Shown here: piece after piece, positions 13,149-63,502 of the stretch | Position numbering within the stretch: position 1 is the stretch's first letter | Layout of the letters: each line of letters starts with the position of its first letter | Source: Henriciella sp. | Lineage (GTDB): Bacteria > Pseudomonadota > Alphaproteobacteria > Caulobacterales > Hyphomonadaceae | Direction: 5' to 3' | Length of the DNA: 64,000 nt | Assembly: GCA_965228095.1 (NCBI GenBank) | Contig: OZ245793.1 | Location: forward strand, 3,563,516 to 3,627,515 | Program-made: the position numbers and the translations under genes | Notes under the pieces: generated by a model | Database searches by the model: none | The model's input: only the letters and a program-made list of their open reading frames with translations | Told to the model about the DNA's origin: nothing

Positions 13149-13916
13149 ATGAACCAAGGCGAACAGAACCAATTCGAAATCATGGCCGCATCTATCAAAG
13201 CGATAGCGGCCGCGACGGATCCCGCGCAGATTCTCGGCATCACCAAACATTTCCTGAGAGATTTCACATTTGGCGTAGAGCACACGGCCCACGATCGCGG
13301 CATGCTTGGCATTTTCATGTTGAAATCAGATGGGCTCGAGGAAGAGAAACGCATTTCGGTTTCGAACTGGACTCCGGCATTCGTCACGGAACGCGCGATG
13401 TTGAATGGCTACACCCACGATCCGTCTGTCATCATGGTCCAACAGGCTGCAAAGCCGTTCACCTGGGCCCAAGGTATGGAAGGCGCTGACAGGGCCTCTC
13501 TCGCGATCGCTGACCTGTGCCAGGAGCACACTGGACAGCGCGATGGCCTCACTTTCCCGATCGCGGATGTGAACATGCTGAAAGGGGCCGCCACGGTTGG
13601 ATTTGATCTGGCGCCCACGGACTTCAGTCCAATCCAGATCGGAATGATGCACCACGTCTTTATCGCCGCATATGCCCGCCTTTACCGCCTGCAGGGGCCG
13701 TTCCCAGAAGATATCTCGCCGAGCTATTCCCCGCGGCAAAGAGAAATCATTCGTCTACTGGCGCTGGGAAAGACGGTGGCGGACGCCGCGAGGATCATGG
13801 GATGCAGCGTGGCCACTGCCCAGGACCACCTGGCGCAGGCCAAACAGAAAGTCGGTGCGCGCACCAATCCGGAACTGATCGCAAAGTCGATCGATAAAAA
13901 TGTGGTGCTGCGCTGA
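13149..13916 (+). CDS. luxR: LuxR-family quorum-sensing regulator (autoinducer-binding domain plus HTH)
   Basis: 255 aa; HDP, PFTW and DGLTFP ligand-domain motifs; SPRQREIIRLLALGKT LuxR HTH. Confidence 0.9.
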   Translation: MNQGEQNQFEIMAASIKAIAAATDPAQILGITKHFLRDFTFGVEHTAHDRGMLGIFMLKSDGLEEEKRISVSNWTPAFVTERAMLNGYTHDPSVIMVQQAAKPFTWAQGMEGADRASLAIADLCQEHTGQRDGLTFPIADVNMLKGAATVGFDLAPTDFSPIQIGMMHHVFIAAYARLYRLQGPFPEDISPSYSPRQREIIRLLALGKTVADAARIMGCSVATAQDHLAQAKQKVGARTNPELIAKSIDKNVVLR

Positions 13917-13936
13917 TACCCTAAAAATTTAGGGTA
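13917..13936. promoter_or_regulatory. lux-box-like 20-bp inverted repeat upstream of luxI
   Basis: TACCCTAAA-AA-TTTAGGGTA with perfect 9-bp arms, centred ~55 bp before luxI ATG. Confidence 0.7.
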
Positions 13937-13980
13937 CCGCGGAAACTGGGAACCCGGACACTCCAATCAAAGGAGTGTTC

Positions 13981-14658
13981 ATGGCCGAGTTGATTTTACC
14001 CGAAAACCGTCACCTCTATCTGCATGTCCTCGATGCGATGCACGTCGCTCGTTTTGAGCTGTTTTTCGATGGCCTCGGATGGGATCCGGTCGAATGTGGC
14101 CTGGATCGGCCGCAAGACAAATATGACAAAGACCAGTTCGATAAAGACGATACGGTGTACATCATTGAGCGCATGCCTGAGACGGGTGAGGTGGTTGGTT
14201 TCTGCCGGATCAATCCGACCACGTCACCGCACATGATGGATCAGGTTTTCGCAGACTATTGCGAATACGATGGTGTTCCGATCGGGGCGAGCATTCATGA
14301 GGTGTCCCGGCTCGGTTATGATTATCGCGTTCTGAAGCGTAACCGCGACGACTGGAAAGAGGTCCGCTTTCGAATGACCAGCGCGATCTCAGAGTACTGT
14401 CTCTTGCGCGGCATCGACCAGGTCACCTATTGCGTTCATGATCATATCTTCAATGCCATCCAACAAGATACGTGGGGTGCCATCCCCCTTGGAAATCAGA
14501 GATATGATAAACGCCTGGATCAGTTCTATCAGGCGGGAATCTCAGATATTACACGAGAGGGCTTGGAGAGATGCCGCGCCGAACTACGTCGACCTGAAGA
14601 TGACGTTTTGACTTATTTCGGCCCGGTCGCGGCCGCACAGTTGAAGGAGGCGGCGTGA
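13981..14658 (+). CDS. luxI: Acyl-homoserine-lactone synthase (LuxI family)
   Basis: RFELF, LGW, DKDQFD, CRINPT, HEVSR match conserved LuxI residues; AAGGAG RBS. Confidence 0.9.
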   Translation: MAELILPENRHLYLHVLDAMHVARFELFFDGLGWDPVECGLDRPQDKYDKDQFDKDDTVYIIERMPETGEVVGFCRINPTTSPHMMDQVFADYCEYDGVPIGASIHEVSRLGYDYRVLKRNRDDWKEVRFRMTSAISEYCLLRGIDQVTYCVHDHIFNAIQQDTWGAIPLGNQRYDKRLDQFYQAGISDITREGLERCRAELRRPEDDVLTYFGPVAAAQLKEAA

Positions 14659-14837
14659 TGGGAAAAGCAGCGCGAAAAGTCGATCCCCTTGAAAATATTG
14701 CTGAGTTGATTGATTGGTTGACCGATCGCGCAACGGACGAAACAGGTGCGAGTGATGCGCTTCGCAAAAAGCTGGCAGAGGCAAAAGAGCAGGCCAAACG
14801 CGACCTGGACACACATCGGTCAGCGAGAGGTTCCTAG
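14658..14837 (+). CDS. Small protein (59 aa) coupled to luxI; smORF-A
   Basis: TGATG overlap with luxI stop; homologous to 61857..62054 (PL..I.EL, AT...GASD.LR, QA..DL). Confidence 0.75.
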   Translation: MGKAARKVDPLENIAELIDWLTDRATDETGASDALRKKLAEAKEQAKRDLDTHRSARGS

Positions 14838-15182
14838 ATCCAATACGGTTAGAACTGCATCCAGGGTTTCGATATCTGCGTTGCGCAGCATCTCTTTCAC
14901 TCGATCCACTCGCAGCTGCCTCGAGGCTGCGTCTCCGACGCTGTCACTCCCGAACGTTTCGGCTTCAGGAAAAAAGTAGCCGGCTTTGACCTCGAGCACA
15001 TCACAGATTTGATCGAGCACGTTGGCGGGAACCGGTCGATCTCCGCGCTCATAGTTGCTAAGGGTCGCGCGTTGGATATCAAGCTTTGCCGCGAGGCGCT
15101 GCTGGCTCAACCGTCTTTCATCGCGCGCTGCGCGTATCGCCTGCCCAATTCGGCGGTCAATTTTTTTCCGTTTAGTCGGCAT
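14820..15182 (-). CDS. XRE-family HTH repressor
   Basis: IRAARDERRLSQQRLAAKLDIQRATLSNYERG HTH_3 motif; paralog 61998..62366. Confidence 0.9.
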   Translation of the reverse strand: MPTKRKKIDRRIGQAIRAARDERRLSQQRLAAKLDIQRATLSNYERGDRPVPANVLDQICDVLEVKAGYFFPEAETFGSDSVGDAASRQLRVDRVKEMLRNADIETLDAVLTVLDLGTSR

Positions 15183-15218
15183 GGTTGATATTATAGGTAT
15201 CTCGCGCGCTGGTGGAAA
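15183..15218 (-). promoter_or_regulatory. Sigma70-type promoter giving a probable leaderless XRE mRNA
   Basis: Minus strand TTTCCA-N17-TATAAT-N7-ATG; same geometry in prophage B. Confidence 0.6.
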
Positions 15219-15447
15219 GTTTACAGAATCGAACATTTTACTACCCCTGCAACGGTGCGTTTCAGGAAACGTGTTTACTGCCCTTAAAACGACCTAATCG
15301 TATGTTGACTCACGCAACACCGATGACAAGTTTGTTTCAAAAATATAACAGCAGTCATCTGCAACTGAACTAAGCCGACAATACACGAAGGCACTTATTG
15401 CGGTGCTTTCTTATAGTACAGAATGTATAATATGGTGGGGTCTCAAA

Positions 15448-15669
15448 TTGACCAATACAGTTAATGATCAAACCGTCGCATCGTTGTTCTCCGGAAAGCT
15501 GATGCGCGCGCAAGACGTGCTCCATGCTGCCGGCACGCTGGCGCGGGTGGTTGAACAAAAGCAAGTCGTATCGGCCGGCGATCGCGATCTCGCCGCCCTG
15601 ATTGGGATCGTCACTTTGGTCCAGGAAGAATTTGACGGATTGCTCGACGAGGTTGCGCGGACTGCCTGA
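15448..15669 (+). CDS. Small protein (73 aa), smORF-B
   Basis: TTG start; homologous and equal in length to 62632..62853 (S.GDRDL.ALI, V..EF..L). Confidence 0.7.
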   Translation: MTNTVNDQTVASLFSGKLMRAQDVLHAAGTLARVVEQKQVVSAGDRDLAALIGIVTLVQEEFDGLLDEVARTA

Positions 15670-15821: not shown

Positions 15822-15862
15822 GGAGAGGTGGCCGAGTGGCTGAAGGCGCTCCCCTGCTAAGG
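15822..15862 (+). pseudogene. 5' fragment of tRNA-Ser(GCT); putative att junction between the prophages
   Basis: GGAGAGGTGGCCGAGTGGCTGAAGGCGCTCCCCTGCTAAGG covers acceptor 5' strand, D arm and GCT anticodon loop; no variable or T arm follows. Confidence 0.85.
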
Positions 15863-15927: not shown

Positions 15928-16542
15928 CTAGTTCTTCCGCAGCTCTTCATTCGGTGTCTCGGCCTGGGCTGCGAATTTCTCAATGATTTCAGCGCATCGC
16001 AGGCCGCCACCTGAGGCAGACAGCTGGTCGGCAATCTCGCGTCGGCGTTCCGGATCCGTTCGCTTGTTCGGATCAAAGGCAATCGCATCTGCGTCCTGGA
16101 CATCGAGCGCGCGAAGCTCCGGATGTGTGCGCAGCAGCTCGGCCGCCTTGCGACTGATATAAAGCCGGGGAGGATTGAAGCGCGTTTGCTCGTCGCGCAG
16201 TACATCTGTCATCATGATTTCGCTATCCCGCAATCCGGAGAAAGCGAGCGCGATATTGATCAGCGTTGCGTCATAGAGTTTGCGGTTTCTCGGATTGCCC
16301 ATCCGGCCTTCAGGGGTATGAAGCCCGCGCCTGGCGAGCGCCGCTTTCAAGTCTATGAGTGACTTCTTGCCGAAATTTGGCTGCGACAACCACCAGGCTT
16401 CAGTTTGCGCCGCAGCCTCTTCCCATGTCCAAACGCCGGCTATCCGAAGTGCATTTATTGTTCTGGCCTGCAGCTCATCTCCAAATTTGTCGCGATATCT
16501 CTCAATCTCGGCATTGTATTCGGATAGTGATTGATAGGTCAT
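15928..16542 (-). CDS. Protein with RNA polymerase alpha-CTD-like domain
   Basis: ELQARTINALRIAGV...WLSQPNFGKKSLIDLKAALARRGL resembles RpoA CTD (R..N.L, PNFGKKSL). Confidence 0.7.
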   Translation of the reverse strand: MTYQSLSEYNAEIERYRDKFGDELQARTINALRIAGVWTWEEAAAQTEAWWLSQPNFGKKSLIDLKAALARRGLHTPEGRMGNPRNRKLYDATLINIALAFSGLRDSEIMMTDVLRDEQTRFNPPRLYISRKAAELLRTHPELRALDVQDADAIAFDPNKRTDPERRREIADQLSASGGGLRCAEIIEKFAAQAETPNEELRKN

Positions 16543-24870: not shown

Positions 24871-25194
24871 TTACCGCTTACCAATTGCGGTCACGACGCA
24901 TCCCGCAGCAGTAAATATTGCACCTGAGATGATTATGATTGGTGCAAGAAATAAAGCCCAGCTCGCGAATAACATTTCACGCTCAAACCCATAGCTTTCC
25001 AATCCATCAGTAAACGCCGGATCGACATTTTTGTACGCGATCACTTCCGGTGAAGTGAAGAAATGCCAGCCCAATATGCAAGTCCCGATAATCATCAGGA
25101 CAACGCCCAACACTCCGAGGCTGGACACGTCAGTTTCTTCGCTTTGTTCCGCCTCACTTTTCAGTTTCGATTGCGGCTCCGGCATATTGCTCAC
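24871..25194 (-). CDS. Two-TM membrane protein downstream of repressor (possible immunity/exclusion)
   Basis: Two hydrophobic helices; co-oriented with cI. Confidence 0.55.
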   Translation of the reverse strand: MSNMPEPQSKLKSEAEQSEETDVSSLGVLGVVLMIIGTCILGWHFFTSPEVIAYKNVDPAFTDGLESYGFEREMLFASWALFLAPIIIISGAIFTAAGCVVTAIGKR

Positions 25195-25504
25195 TAAGTC
25201 CCTTGGCTACGTTTACGACAGCATCGCGTTGTTCGGGTTGCTCGATCTGCAAGAAGTATTGTTGCAGTTTGGCCAATGTTGGATTGAAGGCGTCGGGCTT
25301 TGAGAATAGCGCAGGCACGCTCGGAGCTGACACCCCTTCTGCGTATGCGGTCAGAAACTGAAGAGTCACGTTGGTCGTTTGAACTTCAGAGTTAGCGATG
25401 TGGCCACGCGAGTATCCAATCTTGTGAGCAAGTTGCTCTTGGGTGAGGCCCGCATTTTTGCGCCAGGCCGCCAGGTGCAACTCCGGAGGTTCGAACTTAT
25501 TCAT
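25154..25504 (-). CDS. CI-like XRE repressor
   Basis: LAAWRKNAGLTQEQLAHKIGYSRGHIAN HTH; divergent from cro-like gene. Confidence 0.8.
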   Translation of the reverse strand: MNKFEPPELHLAAWRKNAGLTQEQLAHKIGYSRGHIANSEVQTTNVTLQFLTAYAEGVSAPSVPALFSKPDAFNPTLAKLQQYFLQIEQPEQRDAVVNVAKGLSEQYAGAAIETEK

Positions 25505-25537
25505 GTGAACACATTGCCACAGCGCGAAATCACGCGC

Positions 25538-25588
25538 TGTTGGTGACACCAACAATTTTCTTGTCGGAAAATGTTGGTGTGATATTAC
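25538..25588. promoter_or_regulatory. OR-like operators between cI and cro
   Basis: Perfect 17-bp palindrome TGTTGGTG-A-CACCAACA (25538-25554) and second TGTTGGTG half-site at 25572. Confidence 0.7.
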
Positions 25589-25595
25589 AAACGAC

Positions 25596-25877
25596 ATGAC
25601 GATTCTCGATGATTGGAAATCAGCCAAAGGCGTGAACGATACGCAAGCTTCTGAAATGCTTGGTATTTCTCGTGGCTTTTTTGTCGCCCTCAGACGCGAG
25701 AATGCACTGCCATCCGTGCCAGTACTGATTCGGATGCGGCGCGTTACCGGACTGAGCTTCGATGATCTGTTGAAGAAGTGGGTAGAAGAAGATGCACGAG
25801 AGCATGCCGAGAAAAATGCCCCGGGCACACAGCTTTCTCTACCCCAATTGCCAAATCAAAGTGGGGTAGCTGCATGA
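25596..25877 (+). CDS. Cro-like HTH protein
   Basis: LDDWKSAKGVNDTQASEMLGISRGF HTH; divergent from cI. Confidence 0.75.
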   Translation: MTILDDWKSAKGVNDTQASEMLGISRGFFVALRRENALPSVPVLIRMRRVTGLSFDDLLKKWVEEDAREHAEKNAPGTQLSLPQLPNQSGVAA

Positions 25878-61856: not shown

Positions 61857-62054
61857 ATGCATCCGCTTGTGCAGATCCAGGAACTGCTAGTCCATATAGA
61901 AGAACTGGCGACGGCCGATATCGGGGCAAGTGATGAATTGCGTGAGCGGATCGCCGCTGCGACAAGACAGGCAGAACTCGACCTATATGCGGCTGAACTA
62001 CTTGGATCGGCTGGAGAGATCGAGAATGTGGAGGATCATATCGAGGGTGACTAG
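61857..62054 (+). CDS. Small protein (65 aa), smORF-A homolog
   Basis: GGAGA RBS; aligns to 14658..14837. Confidence 0.75.
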   Translation: MHPLVQIQELLVHIEELATADIGASDELRERIAAATRQAELDLYAAELLGSAGEIENVEDHIEGD

Positions 62055-62366
62055 GGCTGTGTCCGGTCCCATTTTTCGATTGATCTCTTCAATGCGTTGT
62101 TTGCGGGCAGCTGCATCACCGTTTGCATCACTGCCAGTCGCTTCAGCTTCACGAAAGAAATGTCCTGGCTTGATGTCCAACGCGATTGCAATTCGATTGA
62201 GCGTGCGTGCAGGAATGGGTCGAGCGCCACGTTCATAGTATCCGAGCGTCGCGCGCAAAATCGACACTCTCGCCGCCAGGCGCTCCTGGCTCCAACCTTT
62301 CGCGCGTCTCGCCGATCGAATTGCTGTGCCCAGCTGTTGATCAAAAATTTGGGGCGTCTCGACCAT
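61998..62366 (-). CDS. XRE-family HTH repressor
   Basis: IRSARRAKGWSQERLAARVSILRATLGYYERG; paralog of 14820..15182. Confidence 0.9.
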   Translation of the reverse strand: MVETPQIFDQQLGTAIRSARRAKGWSQERLAARVSILRATLGYYERGARPIPARTLNRIAIALDIKPGHFFREAEATGSDANGDAAARKQRIEEINRKMGPDTALVTLDMILHILDLSSRSK

Positions 62367-62402
62367 GGTAGAGAATATAGAGATCTCGCTCACTGGTGGA
62401 AA
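62367..62402 (-). promoter_or_regulatory. Promoter giving a probable leaderless XRE mRNA
   Basis: Minus strand TTTCCA-N17-TATATT-N7-ATG. Confidence 0.6.
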
Positions 62403-62631
62403 GTTTACAGACTCAGCCATAATCGCCATCCTGCAACACAGCGTTTCAGAAATCATTCCGATCTCTTAAAAAAGACAAATTGTCTATGTTGACTCGTGCA
62501 ATACGCGTGCTCAGTTTGTTTCAAAAATATAGCAACAATCTTCTGCAACTGAACTAAGCCGAAAATACAAATGCGTACTCTCGACGGTCCGCATTAATAA
62601 TACAGAACGTATAGTATGGTGGGTAATAGCA

Positions 62632-62853
62632 TTGTCGAAAGCAAGTATTGATAGGGACGTCACACCCTTAATGTCCGTTCGGTTAATCCGGACTCGAGCG
62701 ATGATACATTCGGTAAAAACGATGGCCGATGCGGTCGACGGAAAGGCCAACATTCAATCAGGAGACCGCGATCTCGAGGCTCTGATCGCAATGGCGTCGG
62801 TGGTTCACGATGAGTTTGAGAGTTTGATGGCGGATTTCGACCAGCAGACCTGA
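62632..62853 (+). CDS. Small protein (73 aa), smORF-B homolog
   Basis: TTG start; aligns to 15448..15669. Confidence 0.7.
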   Translation: MSKASIDRDVTPLMSVRLIRTRAMIHSVKTMADAVDGKANIQSGDRDLEALIAMASVVHDEFESLMADFDQQT

Positions 62854-63234
62854 TCAGCTCGCCTTTGCGTCGCTCTCGTCAAGTTGCAGCGCTTCTCGCA
62901 AGATCGCATTCATCCGGGTCTGCCAGCCAGTCCCATCTGCCTGTAACGCTTTAATCACGTCGTCGTCCAGGCGAACGGTTTTTTGAGTTTTCCTGGATCC
63001 AACCGGCCGGCCACGTTTGCGAACCATGACTAGCTTGCCGGACTCGATGTCTTCGGGCGTTATCGGCATGTTGTCTGGATCGTACGGATTGTCGGACGGC
63101 TTGGTTGCCGGCTTCTTCGCACGTAATCCGGATTGGCGCATTGTCGATGCGCGCACAATTCTGCCGTCCTTTGCGAACGATCGAGCAAACTTAGCAGGGC
63201 TGGTTTTTGGTTTTCGTTTCGGTGGTTTAGTCAT
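62854..63234 (-). CDS. brnA: BrnA-family antitoxin
   Basis: RGRP...KTQKTVRLDDDVI..L...G.GWQTRMNAILR. Confidence 0.88.
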   Translation of the reverse strand: MTKPPKRKPKTSPAKFARSFAKDGRIVRASTMRQSGLRAKKPATKPSDNPYDPDNMPITPEDIESGKLVMVRKRGRPVGSRKTQKTVRLDDDVIKALQADGTGWQTRMNAILREALQLDESDAKAS

Positions 63235-63502
63235 GGTACATTCTCCTTTCTTGAGGAGTTGAGCGGCGAAGGGAAATGATGCGAATGCGCTCGCCGCGAT
63301 ATGTGAAGCTCATGGTGTGCAACCGGCCTTGGATCAGTCCGATGGCTGTTGAGCGAACCTCGTCATAATTGAATCGGTCGTCTTCAAACTCCGTGCACGT
63401 ATCCCAATCAAAATTGGACGCCGCTTCGAACGAGACACCGTGCGTATCGATATTGGAGACATTTTTTGCTTCATCCCATTCGTATTCCGGCGTCTCGCTC
63501 AT
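63227..63502 (-). CDS. brnT: BrnT-family toxin (RNase)
   Basis: EWDEAKN..N...HGVSFE.A, E.R...IG, IRIISLR. Confidence 0.9.
   Translation of the reverse strand: MSETPEYEWDEAKNVSNIDTHGVSFEAASNFDWDTCTEFEDDRFNYDEVRSTAIGLIQGRLHTMSFTYRGERIRIISLRRSTPQERRMYHD

What the first reader, a model, noticed from the sequence alone, without database searches (positions are those of the whole stretch)
14658..15669. Conserved smORF-A / XRE / smORF-B regulatory cassette at the right end of both prophages
Seen: a three-gene unit far from the main cI/cro switch (also 61857-62853). smORF-A overlaps the XRE gene tail-to-tail, smORF-B has a TTG start and is 73 aa in both copies, and the AT-rich spacer keeps blocks such as TATGTTGACTC, AGTTTGTTTCAAAAATATA and CTGCAACTGAACTAAGCCGA. 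Established: transcription factor plus small-ORF modules are described as SOS-independent prophage induction switches in polylysogens. Inference: a second switch whose input is interchangeable (quorum sensing in A, unknown in B). The conserved GACTC is also a GANTC site, so CcrM methylation could modulate it.
Basis: partly seen in the sequence, partly recalled or inferred. Interest (0 to 1): 0.7.

Follow-up and report, generated by a model that had tools for sequence, protein, structure and literature searches.

The report
Prophage XRE and small-protein switch
Both tandem prophages of this Henriciella genome end in the same conserved three-gene unit (small protein, XRE regulator, small protein), usually attached to a phage-made quorum-sensing system; it is most likely an extra switch, apart from the main repressor, for deciding between dormancy and lysis.

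Summary
The cassette 14658-15669 has a true homologue at 61857-62853, and all three ORFs are conserved proteins under purifying selection. I found it in 7 more loci of a main clade and, as far as short contigs show, in a distant clade. It always lies at the lysis-gene/att end of lambda-like temperate phages. In 6 of 9 main-clade copies, smORF-A is the last, translationally coupled gene of a luxR-luxI-smORF-A operon that converges on the XRE gene with an 18-nt tail overlap.

The XRE/smORF-B spacer holds islands that are invariant although synonymous sites are saturated. These are an apparently leaderless XRE promoter with a palindromic 13-mer, an invariant GTTGAC, and a hairpin with compensatory changes in the smORF-B leader.

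smORF-B is a 73-aa acidic two-helix hairpin that always starts with TTG or GTG. The main repressor has no protease domain.

Best reading (about 0.45): an accessory lysis-lysogeny switch of the TF-smORF type described by Silpe et al. 2023, with quorum sensing as an exchangeable input. The sign of regulation and the targets are inferred, not shown. The CcrM/GANTC idea gets no support. I rate it a new variant of a known kind, in a new host order and phage type.

The parts
13149..13916 (+). luxR (AHL receptor); input module attached to cassette copy A
   Evidence: Pfam Autoind_bind plus GerE. The same gene sits in the same place in L008, L009, L010, L011 and L014.
13917..13936 (.). 20-bp lux-box-like palindrome directly after the luxR stop, about 54 nt before the luxI ATG
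   Evidence: Alignment of 6 luxR-luxI spacers. The dyad is kept while its arms change together. No second copy lies in the cassette spacer.
13975..14658 (+). luxI (AHL synthase; probable ATG at 13981), the only one in this genome
   Evidence: Pfam Autoind_synth 5.6e-14. It is the only PF00765 match in G000.
14658..14837 (+). smORF-A, 59 aa. Its ATG overlaps the luxI stop (TGATG) and a GAAGGAGG Shine-Dalgarno lies upstream
   Evidence: It is conserved in 8 independent copies with no stops; 49 of 52 third codon positions vary; dN/dS is 0.15-0.42.
14820..15182 (-). XRE regulator, 120 aa counted from the proximal ATG (the frame stays open up to 15236)
   Evidence: HTH_3 3.9e-13. AF2 gives a confident HTH at residues 1-70 and two low-confidence C-terminal helices. 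Foldseek top hits are C.BclI, ClgR, C.AhdI, C.Esp1396I and SinR. The start was chosen.
15183..15236 (-). Nearly invariant XRE promoter/operator core: -10 at 15195-15190, weak -35 at 15218-15213, ATG 7 nt after the -10 (probably a leaderless mRNA)
   Evidence: Mean pairwise identity is 85% here against 52-59% in the ORFs and the rest of the spacer. Only 9 of 19 third positions vary, against 118 of 119 in the XRE body. The promoter scan finds the same site in both copies.
15209..15226 (.). Invariant 18-mer holding the imperfect palindrome TGGAAA-G-TTTACA (15213-15225); candidate XRE operator over the -35
   Evidence: In L008 it is a perfect 5+1+5 dyad, and L047 of the distant clade has TGGAAT-ATTCCA nearby.
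15257..15270 (.). Block II, a 14-bp dyad (CGTTTC-AG-GAAACG in copy A), kept as GCGTTnCnGAAATC in all 12 spacers
   Evidence: The related word GTTTCARAAAT has exact matches only inside the two cassettes.
15304..15310 (+). Invariant GTTGAC(T): -35-like element of the proposed smORF-B promoter. GACTC here is the GANTC site
   Evidence: Invariant in 12 of 12 spacers. A weak -10 lies 16 nt downstream and an invariant CA lies at the predicted start, about 15339 (inference).
15387..15410 (+). Conserved hairpin (8-bp stem, 8-nt loop) in the proposed smORF-B leader
   Evidence: RNAalifold. 82% of cells are paired, 7 of 9 pairs show compensatory change, 0 of 500 shuffles reach this, and slid controls reach at most 51%. 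G-U pairs favour the + strand.
15448..15669 (+). smORF-B, 73 aa, TTG start, GGTGG 8-9 nt upstream; acidic two-helix hairpin
   Evidence: AF2 pLDDT 80.6, helices 3-37 and 46-72. dN/dS is 0.11-0.43. Only 8 representatives exist among 1.84 billion proteins.
15822..15862 (+). att core (5' half of tRNA-Ser GCT) joining prophage A to prophage B
   Evidence: Three exact copies in the genome. The intact tRNA lies only at the right end of B.
61857..62054 (+). smORF-A of copy B (65 aa), with no luxR-luxI upstream
61998..62366 (-). XRE of copy B (122 aa from the proximal ATG)
62367..62631 (.). Spacer of copy B, with the same islands as copy A: 18-mer 62393-62410, block II 62443-62453, GTTGACT 62488-62494, hairpin about 62570-62595
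62632..62853 (+). smORF-B of copy B (73 aa, TTG start)

Best explanation
The cassette is an accessory lysis-lysogeny decision module of the TF-smORF type, carried by a small family of lambda-like temperate phages of Hyphomonadaceae.

Proposed working: a two-domain XRE regulator is made from a tightly constrained, probably leaderless promoter. It binds dyads in the shared spacer and so sets its own level and that of the divergent smORF-B promoter. smORF-B is a 73-aa acidic helical hairpin whose translation is kept low by a non-AUG start and a structured leader. It is the effector, and it acts by protein contact on the phage's short main repressor, which has no protease domain. The phage-made AHL signal enters through LuxR and the lux box in front of luxI. 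This drives luxI-smORF-A transcription, which produces smORF-A protein and reads antisense into the XRE gene across the 18-nt tail overlap. Phages without luxR-luxI keep the core and must use another input.

Shown: the anatomy, conservation, purifying selection, nucleotide-level constraint on the spacer, linkage to luxR-luxI, and the folds.

Inferred: the promoter and operator assignments, the partners of smORF-A and smORF-B, and whether AHL favours lysis or lysogeny. Because the phage itself is the only AHL source, stabilising lysogeny at high lysogen density is as plausible as triggering lysis.
For: 1. The unit is conserved in 9 main-clade loci. In the distant clade, L047 shows all three genes; L048 and L049 show a truncated XRE plus smORF-B, and L046 shows smORF-B only. 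In the contigs long enough to show context it sits between lysis genes and att/integrase.
2. All three ORFs are under purifying selection while synonymous sites are saturated. The spacer islands are nevertheless invariant.
3. Six of 9 copies carry luxR-luxI-smORF-A with overlapping stop and start codons, and a lux-box dyad stands before luxI.
4. The layout matches XRE(+LuxR)/counter-oriented smORF modules, in which the smORF inactivates cI and relatives lacking luxR exist (PMC10432266).
5. The XRE fold's best matches (C.BclI, ClgR, C.AhdI, C.Esp1396I) are the same structures reported for TF72 and TF63 in that paper.
6. smORF-B is a helical hairpin, not an HTH, has no family in Pfam, PHROGs, PADLOC or NCBIfam, and belongs to a tiny family, as the published smORFs do.
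7. The main repressor is 116 aa without an S24 domain, so induction needs an antirepressor-type route.
8. The candidate XRE dyads occur only in the cassette and not in the cI-cro region, so any effect on the main switch must go through a protein.
Against: There are no expression data: the RNA runs of the species label do not hold this DNA. No interaction or induction data exist.

The published TFs activate their smORF. Here the smORF-B promoter has a consensus -35 and dyads near its predicted start, which looks more like repression.

The gene order differs from every described module. The role of smORF-A is unassigned. Multimer prediction was not possible with these tools. The promoter calls are consensus matches only. 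There are only 7-8 independent sequences in the main clade.
Confidence: 0.45

Rival explanations
1. The cassette tunes the phage's own quorum-sensing or lysogenic-conversion genes and has no role in induction. XRE would act like RsaL on luxI or luxR, and smORF-A like a TraM- or Aqs1-type small anti-activator of LuxR. The output would be AHL level or host behaviour in the lysogen.
For: The cassette is tightly linked to luxR-luxI in 6 of 9 copies, and smORF-A is translationally coupled to luxI. It lies in the 'moron' position between lysis genes and att. The phage luxI is the only AHL synthase in the genome and the host has two LuxR solos. There is a weak RsaL-like HTH match (E 0.083).
Against: The full core is kept in three phages with no luxR-luxI. 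One of them is in a genome with no luxI at all (G005). The candidate XRE dyads lie in its own spacer, not near luxR or luxI. smORF-A matches no TraM- or QslA-type family.
Confidence: 0.25
2. The cassette is a self-contained SinR/SinI-like (or P1 C1/Coi/Lxc-like) toggle. smORF-B and/or smORF-A bind the C-terminal helices of XRE itself. One would antagonise and the other support its DNA binding, giving bistability. The downstream output would then be whatever XRE controls.
For: XRE has SinR-like domain order: an HTH plus a two-helix tail of low confidence that may fold on a partner. The SinR/SinI complex is among the fold hits. The tail motif TLDxxLxxLDL is the best-conserved part outside the HTH. 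Two small helical proteins flank the gene.
Against: Profile comparison finds no similarity between either smORF and the XRE tail, whereas SinI does resemble the SinR tail. No XRE-type dyads were found outside the cassette, so an output is missing unless smORF-B also acts elsewhere. This rival overlaps the best explanation rather than excluding it.
Confidence: 0.15
3. The cassette is a toxin-antitoxin, abortive-infection or superinfection-exclusion moron, with XRE as antitoxin-like repressor and smORF-B as a small toxin.
For: XRE gives weak sub-threshold matches to HipB, MqsA and PezA antitoxin HTH models and to defence-system regulators. The cassette sits among cargo genes, with BrnT/BrnA next to copy B.
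Against: The genes are divergent, not co-transcribed. smORF-B is acidic and soluble-looking with no membrane helix. Neither smORF has a PADLOC, Pfam or NCBIfam match. All XRE matches are generic HTH hits far below the family cut-offs.
Confidence: 0.05
4. CcrM methylation of the GANTC over the -35-like GTTGACTC gates the smORF-B promoter in a cell-cycle-dependent way. This is an add-on to any of the models above, not an exclusive alternative.
For: The site is present in all three copies known to be hosted by Henriciella and in L008. A second GANTC is shared by A, B and L008. The host order, Caulobacterales, uses CcrM (established knowledge).
Against: The site is lost in 8 of the 12 spacers aligned, although GTTGAC stays invariant. 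GANTC is not enriched (2 against 1.2 expected, P=0.34).
Confidence: 0.1

Closest known systems
TF-smORF modules of linear plasmid-like phages, especially XRE-LuxR/smORF of Aeromonas phages Apop and ARM81ld (Silpe et al. 2023, PMC10432266)
   Same: A phage XRE regulator faces a counter-oriented orphan small ORF. A LuxR-type receptor is an optional partner, and relatives keep xre and the smORF without luxR. It is an accessory pathway apart from cI. The TF fold class is the same (C-proteins, ClgR).
   Different: Here the phage is an integrated lambda-like prophage at tRNA-Ser in an alphaproteobacterium. luxR is not in an operon with xre but in a luxR-luxI-smORF-A operon that converges on it. The phage also makes the signal (luxI). 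There is a second small ORF. There is no sequence similarity, and the function is untested.
Four-gene quorum-sensing switches of Phaeobacter prophages, hth | xre-luxR-luxI (Bunsick et al. 2026 preprint, 10.64898/2026.07.02.736140)
   Same: Alphaproteobacterial prophages encode both LuxI and LuxR next to an XRE regulator with a divergent promoter pair. Two co-resident prophages carry related modules. The modules are exchangeable cassettes.
   Different: There, xre heads the luxR-luxI operon, the counter-oriented gene is an HTH protein, and the module replaces cI/cro. Here xre is convergent, the counter-oriented gene is a helical hairpin without an HTH, and a separate repressor/cro pair exists. 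Their screen required at least 2 luxI genes per genome and found phage modules only in the Roseobacter clade. This genome has one luxI.
immI region of phage P22 (mnt / arc-ant), and LexA-controlled small antirepressors of Gifsy phages and phage 186 (from my own knowledge)
   Same: It is a second regulatory region far from the main repressor, in which a dedicated repressor is divergent from an antirepressor gene.
   Different: There is no homology. smORF-B is far smaller than Ant. No LexA box is present. The quorum-sensing link is absent in those systems.
SinR/SinI of Bacillus subtilis
   Same: An XRE HTH with a helical tail is paired with a small helical partner protein encoded next to it. The SinR/SinI complex appears among the fold hits.
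   Different: SinI resembles the SinR tail and is co-directional with sinR. Here no such similarity is found and the genes are divergent or convergent.
Arbitrium aimR-aimP-aimX of Bacillus phages (from my own knowledge)
   Same: The logic and order are the same: a phage-made signal, its receptor, and a small effector gene directly downstream (compare luxR-luxI-smORF-A). The signal reports the abundance of the phage's own lysogens.
   Different: The chemistry differs (AHL against peptide), the proteins are unrelated, and the role of smORF-A is unknown.
Controller (C) proteins of restriction-modification systems
   Same: These are the best fold matches for the HTH domain. They are small dimeric regulators that bind dyads over their own -35 to autoregulate, often on leaderless transcripts.
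   Different: C-proteins lack the C-terminal tail and control R-M genes. No R-M genes are present here.

Membership tests
TF-smORF prophage induction module (Silpe 2023) | Phage-encoded transcription factor with a divergently transcribed small ORF (<100 aa) that lacks homologues and domains | tested here: met
   XRE on the minus strand and the 73-aa smORF-B on the plus strand share a 265-nt spacer. smORF-B has no Pfam, PHROGs, PADLOC or NCBIfam family and only 8 representatives in 1.84 billion proteins.
TF-smORF prophage induction module (Silpe 2023) | The TF (alone or with LuxR and AHL) activates the smORF promoter | not testable with these tools
   Only promoter-like and dyad elements could be mapped. 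RNA runs lack this DNA.
TF-smORF prophage induction module (Silpe 2023) | The smORF protein inactivates the phage's cI repressor and triggers lysis independently of SOS | not testable with these tools
   Indirect evidence only: the main repressor has no S24 domain and the spacer has no LexA box.
TF-smORF prophage induction module (Silpe 2023) | Residence in linear plasmid-like (telomere) phages at the repA-telN or par locus | tested here: not met
   These are integrated prophages bounded by tRNA-Ser att cores, with an integrase and a GpJ-type tail.
Phage LuxI/LuxR switch, hth | xre-luxR-luxI (Bunsick 2026) | Prophage encodes both luxI and luxR | tested here: met
   Pfam on 13149-14658, and the same pair in 5 related contigs. 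Copy B, L007 and G005 lack them.
Phage LuxI/LuxR switch, hth | xre-luxR-luxI (Bunsick 2026) | xre-luxR-luxI operon with a counter-oriented HTH gene, serving as the phage's only switch (no cI/cro) | tested here: not met
   The order here is luxR-luxI-smORF-A converging on xre. The counter-oriented gene folds as a helical hairpin. A separate repressor/cro pair lies at 25157-25877.
XRE/Cro-C1 HTH regulators (Pfam HTH_3) | HTH_3 domain above the gathering score | tested here: met
   49.6 and 40.3 bits against a cut-off of 23; confident five-helix HTH in the AF2 model.
SinR/SinI pair | The small antagonist is homologous to the regulator's C-terminal helical hook | tested here: not met
   hhalign probability is below 1% for either smORF against XRE.
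Type II toxin-antitoxin | Co-transcribed adjacent toxin and antitoxin, with the toxin in a recognisable family | tested here: not met
   The genes are divergent or convergent, and neither smORF has a toxin family match.

The most novel reading that the evidence does not exclude
The cassette is a shared-operator network between co-resident prophages. Prophages A and B have different main-repressor operators, so they are probably heteroimmune. Their cassette spacers, however, carry identical candidate XRE sites. The AHL system of prophage A, the only AHL source in the cell, could therefore steer both prophages in trans through XRE and smORF-A. smORF-A would act as an AimX-like output of a phage-made AHL 'arbitrium', and the diverged smORF-B proteins would give each phage its own private effector.
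Probability: 0.2. Interest if true: 0.8.

Novelty: new variant of a known kind. Interest (0 to 1): 0.6.

Why it matters
Induction switches that bypass SOS, and phage-encoded quorum sensing, have been shown in the laboratory only for vibrio and aeromonad plasmid-like phages and, very recently, for Roseobacter prophages.

This cassette would extend both ideas to lambda-like integrated prophages of Caulobacterales. Its wiring differs in four ways. Signal synthase, receptor and a coupled small protein converge on the regulator. There are two orphan small proteins. The regulator's mRNA is probably leaderless. The regulatory DNA is far more conserved than the proteins.

The strain is a natural double lysogen: one prophage carries the quorum-sensing input, the other lacks it, and the host makes no AHL of its own. 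That makes it a clean system for asking how prophages share or steal each other's signals. It also shows that screens requiring several luxI genes per genome miss such phages.

Tried and rejected
- Known RNA families: none at gathering score in the whole window, and only one chance-level hit in the cassette.
- An sRNA ending at the hairpin: the stem is supported, but the tail is U-rich only in copy A. I read it as a leader element instead.
- A second lux box in the spacer: none within 6 mismatches of each phage's own box.
- LexA (GTTC-N7-GTTC) and CtrA (TTAA-N7-TTAA) boxes: not conserved.
- CcrM: no enrichment or conservation of GANTC.
- Homology among smORF-A, smORF-B and the XRE tail: none.
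- The 'derepression protein' (PF25738) lead from the protein atlas (score 0.87): no match to it when the 12 smORF-B family members were scanned against Pfam, which may not hold that model.
- Fold search with smORF-B: only generic helical hairpins, best E 0.9.
- The 138-aa XRE start: rejected in favour of the 120-aa start. Third codon positions in the extension are frozen, L049 lacks the extension, and three gene callers chose 120-121 aa.
- Isolated phage genomes: no luxI or smORF-B relative, only generic HTH hits. IMG/VR gave no family member.
- RNA-seq: the runs of the species label do not contain the prophage.
- The longer contigs L008-L010 could not be searched for their repressors because they are not held.
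Full report
**Observation**

The region 14658-15669 and its proposed twin 61857-62853 align over their whole length. Protein identities are 48% for XRE, 38% for smORF-B and 44% for smORF-A.

- smORF-A and XRE overlap tail to tail, by 18 nt in copy A and 57 nt in copy B.
- smORF-B is 73 aa from an aligned TTG in both copies.
- The quoted spacer blocks are identical between the copies.
- Both cassettes lie at the right end of a prophage. The 41-nt att core (the 5' half of tRNA-Ser GCT) occurs three times in the 3.7-Mb genome. It delimits prophage A (about 47.0 kb) and prophage B (about 48.3 kb), and the only intact tRNA-Ser is at the far right.

**Relatives**

The genus is Henriciella: the one other species genome with the cassette is a Henriciella MAG.
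- Only 2 of 72 species genomes of the genus hold the spacer.
- A profile of the XRE protein found eight full-length family members among 5.8 billion clusters. Their contigs were fetched.
- A profile of smORF-B found only 8 representatives among 1.84 billion proteins. These include a distant clade; one of its short contigs (L047) shows the full order smORF-A / XRE / smORF-B, and the others show parts of it.
- In every contig long enough to show context, the cassette sits after the tail (GpJ) and lysis genes and before att or the integrase side.
- In 6 of 9 main-clade copies (A, L008, L009, L010, L011, L014) it is directly preceded by luxR-luxI. Copy B, its near-twin L007 and G005 lack these genes but keep smORF-A.
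- No isolated phage genome and no IMG/VR contig has a relative of luxI or smORF-B.

**The three proteins**

All three frames stay open in all copies. Third codon positions vary at 49 of 52 (smORF-A), 118 of 120 (XRE) and 71 of 73 (smORF-B) codons. dN/dS is 0.1-0.4 where dS is not saturated. So these are real genes under purifying selection at a depth where neutral sites are randomised.

XRE:
- It has an HTH_3 domain.
- The AF2 model gives a confident HTH at residues 1-70 and two low-confidence helices at 82-113.
- Foldseek ranks C.BclI, ClgR, C.AhdI and C.Esp1396I first. The SinR/SinI complex is also listed.

smORF-B:
- It folds as two long antiparallel helices (pLDDT 80.6).
- It has only generic structural neighbours and no family in four HMM libraries.
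- Its start codon is TTG or GTG in 12 of 12 members.

smORF-A is about 60 aa with the conserved motif GASDELRxKL.

Profile comparison finds no relation among the three proteins.

**The spacer**

Between the XRE body and the distal in-frame ATG (15180-15236), mean pairwise identity is 85%. In the ORFs and the rest of the spacer it is 52-59%. In that stretch only 9 of 19 third positions vary, against 118 of 119 in the XRE body. The constraint is therefore on the nucleotides, not on a peptide. One distant member (L049) lacks the extension altogether.

I therefore place the XRE start at the proximal ATG (15182, 120 aa). Seven nucleotides upstream lies a conserved -10 (TATAAT or TATAnT), with a weak -35. 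That geometry fits a leaderless mRNA, which is common in Caulobacterales (established knowledge; the assignment is an inference).

The other conserved islands are:
- An invariant 18-mer over the -35 (15209-15226). It holds the imperfect dyad TGGAAA-G-TTTACA, which is perfect in L008 and echoed by TGGAAT-ATTCCA in L047.
- A 14-bp dyad, block II (15257-15270), kept in all 12 spacers.
- An invariant GTTGAC (15304-15309), with a weak -10 sixteen nt on and an invariant CA at the predicted start near 15339.
- An AT-rich dyad around that start (block IV).
- A hairpin at 15387-15410. Its sequence varies but its pairing is kept: 82% of cells are paired, 7 of 9 pairs show compensatory change, and 0 of 500 shuffles reach this.

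No Rfam family, LexA box or CtrA box is present.

**Link to quorum sensing**
- The luxI stop overlaps the smORF-A start in every luxI-bearing copy.
- A 20-bp dyad stands directly after the luxR stop in all six, with arms that change together. It is the only such box in the locus.
- AHL-bound LuxR should therefore drive luxI-smORF-A. Because the smORF-A and XRE ends overlap without a conserved terminator, that transcription runs antisense into XRE (inference).
- The phage luxI is the only AHL synthase gene in the genome, and the host has two LuxR solos.
- G005, whose cassette lacks luxR-luxI, has no luxI at all.

**Relation to the main switch**

The 'cI at 25154' is over-extended in a naive ORF list. 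The real gene is a 116-aa HTH protein (25157-25504) without a protease domain, divergent from a cro-like gene. Prophage A and G005 have homologues at 66% and 69% identity.

The repressor-cro spacers carry long dyads that differ between A and B, so the two phages are probably heteroimmune. The cassette's candidate operators are identical in A and B and do not occur in those spacers.

**Mechanism**

The best-supported reading is an accessory decision switch. XRE autoregulates and controls smORF-B. smORF-B acts by protein contact, most plausibly on the protease-less main repressor. Quorum sensing, where present, modulates the unit through smORF-A and convergent transcription.

This parallels the XRE-LuxR/smORF modules of Aeromonas phages, where both regulators activate a counter-oriented smORF that inactivates cI, and where Shigella relatives lack luxR (PMC10432266). 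It also parallels the exchangeable luxI/luxR modules of Phaeobacter prophages.

The sign of regulation cannot be read from sequence. A consensus -35 with dyads near the start suggests that XRE represses smORF-B. Because the signal reports the phage's own lysogens, AHL could favour lysogeny, as in Phaeobacter, rather than lysis.

The rivals (a quorum-sensing homeostasis unit, a SinR/SinI-type toggle, a toxin-type moron, CcrM gating) are scored in their own sections. The GANTC idea is weak, since the site is kept in only 4 of 12 spacers and is not enriched.

**Novelty**

No paper in the held library describes phage quorum sensing in Hyphomonadaceae. The Phaeobacter preprint's screen required at least two luxI genes per genome and found phage modules only in the Roseobacter clade. 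This genome has a single, phage-borne luxI, so that screen would have missed it.

The gene order, the second small ORF coupled to luxI, the integrated lambda-like phage type and the host order all differ from described modules. The logic is familiar, so I class it as a new variant of a known kind.

**Caveats**
- There are only 7-8 independent main-clade sequences, and the distant clade comes from short contigs.
- All promoter and operator assignments are consensus-based.
- No transcript data exist for this prophage.
- No multimer modelling could be run.

Noticed in passing
window 13917-13981: The luxR-luxI spacer has a lux-box dyad and, after it, a stem (about 13958-13964 with 13971-13977) that covers the luxI Shine-Dalgarno. 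A LuxR-dependent start placed 42.5 nt from the dyad centre would fall inside the stem. Read-through transcripts from luxR could then be translationally masked while LuxR-activated ones are not. The stem is present in 4 of 6 related phages.
   Followed up: partly
window 25157-25877: The main immunity region of prophage B is a 116-aa HTH repressor with no S24 protease domain, divergent from a 93-aa cro-like HTH gene. The spacer holds a long dyad (CACCAACAATTTTC arms). Prophage A and G005 have 66-69% identical repressors with different dyads.
   Followed up: partly
window 15822-15862; genome G000 3532320, 3579337, 3627661: The two prophages are tandem insertions at one tRNA-Ser(GCT). The repeated core is the 5' half of the tRNA, and only the rightmost copy continues into an intact gene (just past the window end, about 64146).
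   Followed up: yes
window 15928-16542 (-): The first gene of prophage B next to att encodes a protein with an RNA polymerase alpha C-terminal-domain match (Pfam 1.7e-05).
   Followed up: no
window 62854-63502 (-): A BrnA/BrnT toxin-antitoxin pair sits between cassette B and attR. It is absent from prophage A, whose smORF-B ends about 150 nt before the att core.
   Followed up: no
genome G000 3159583-3160020 and 3284553-3284981: The host chromosome has two LuxR-type receptors but no AHL synthase, so they could listen to the phage-made signal. luxI is present in only 16 of 72 species genomes of the genus.
   Followed up: partly
window 61857-62853 versus L007:5114-6179: Between prophage B and its metagenomic near-twin, dS is 0.011 in XRE, 0.09 in smORF-A and 0.30 in smORF-B. 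This suggests a recombination boundary inside the cassette, or faster turnover of smORF-B.
   Followed up: no
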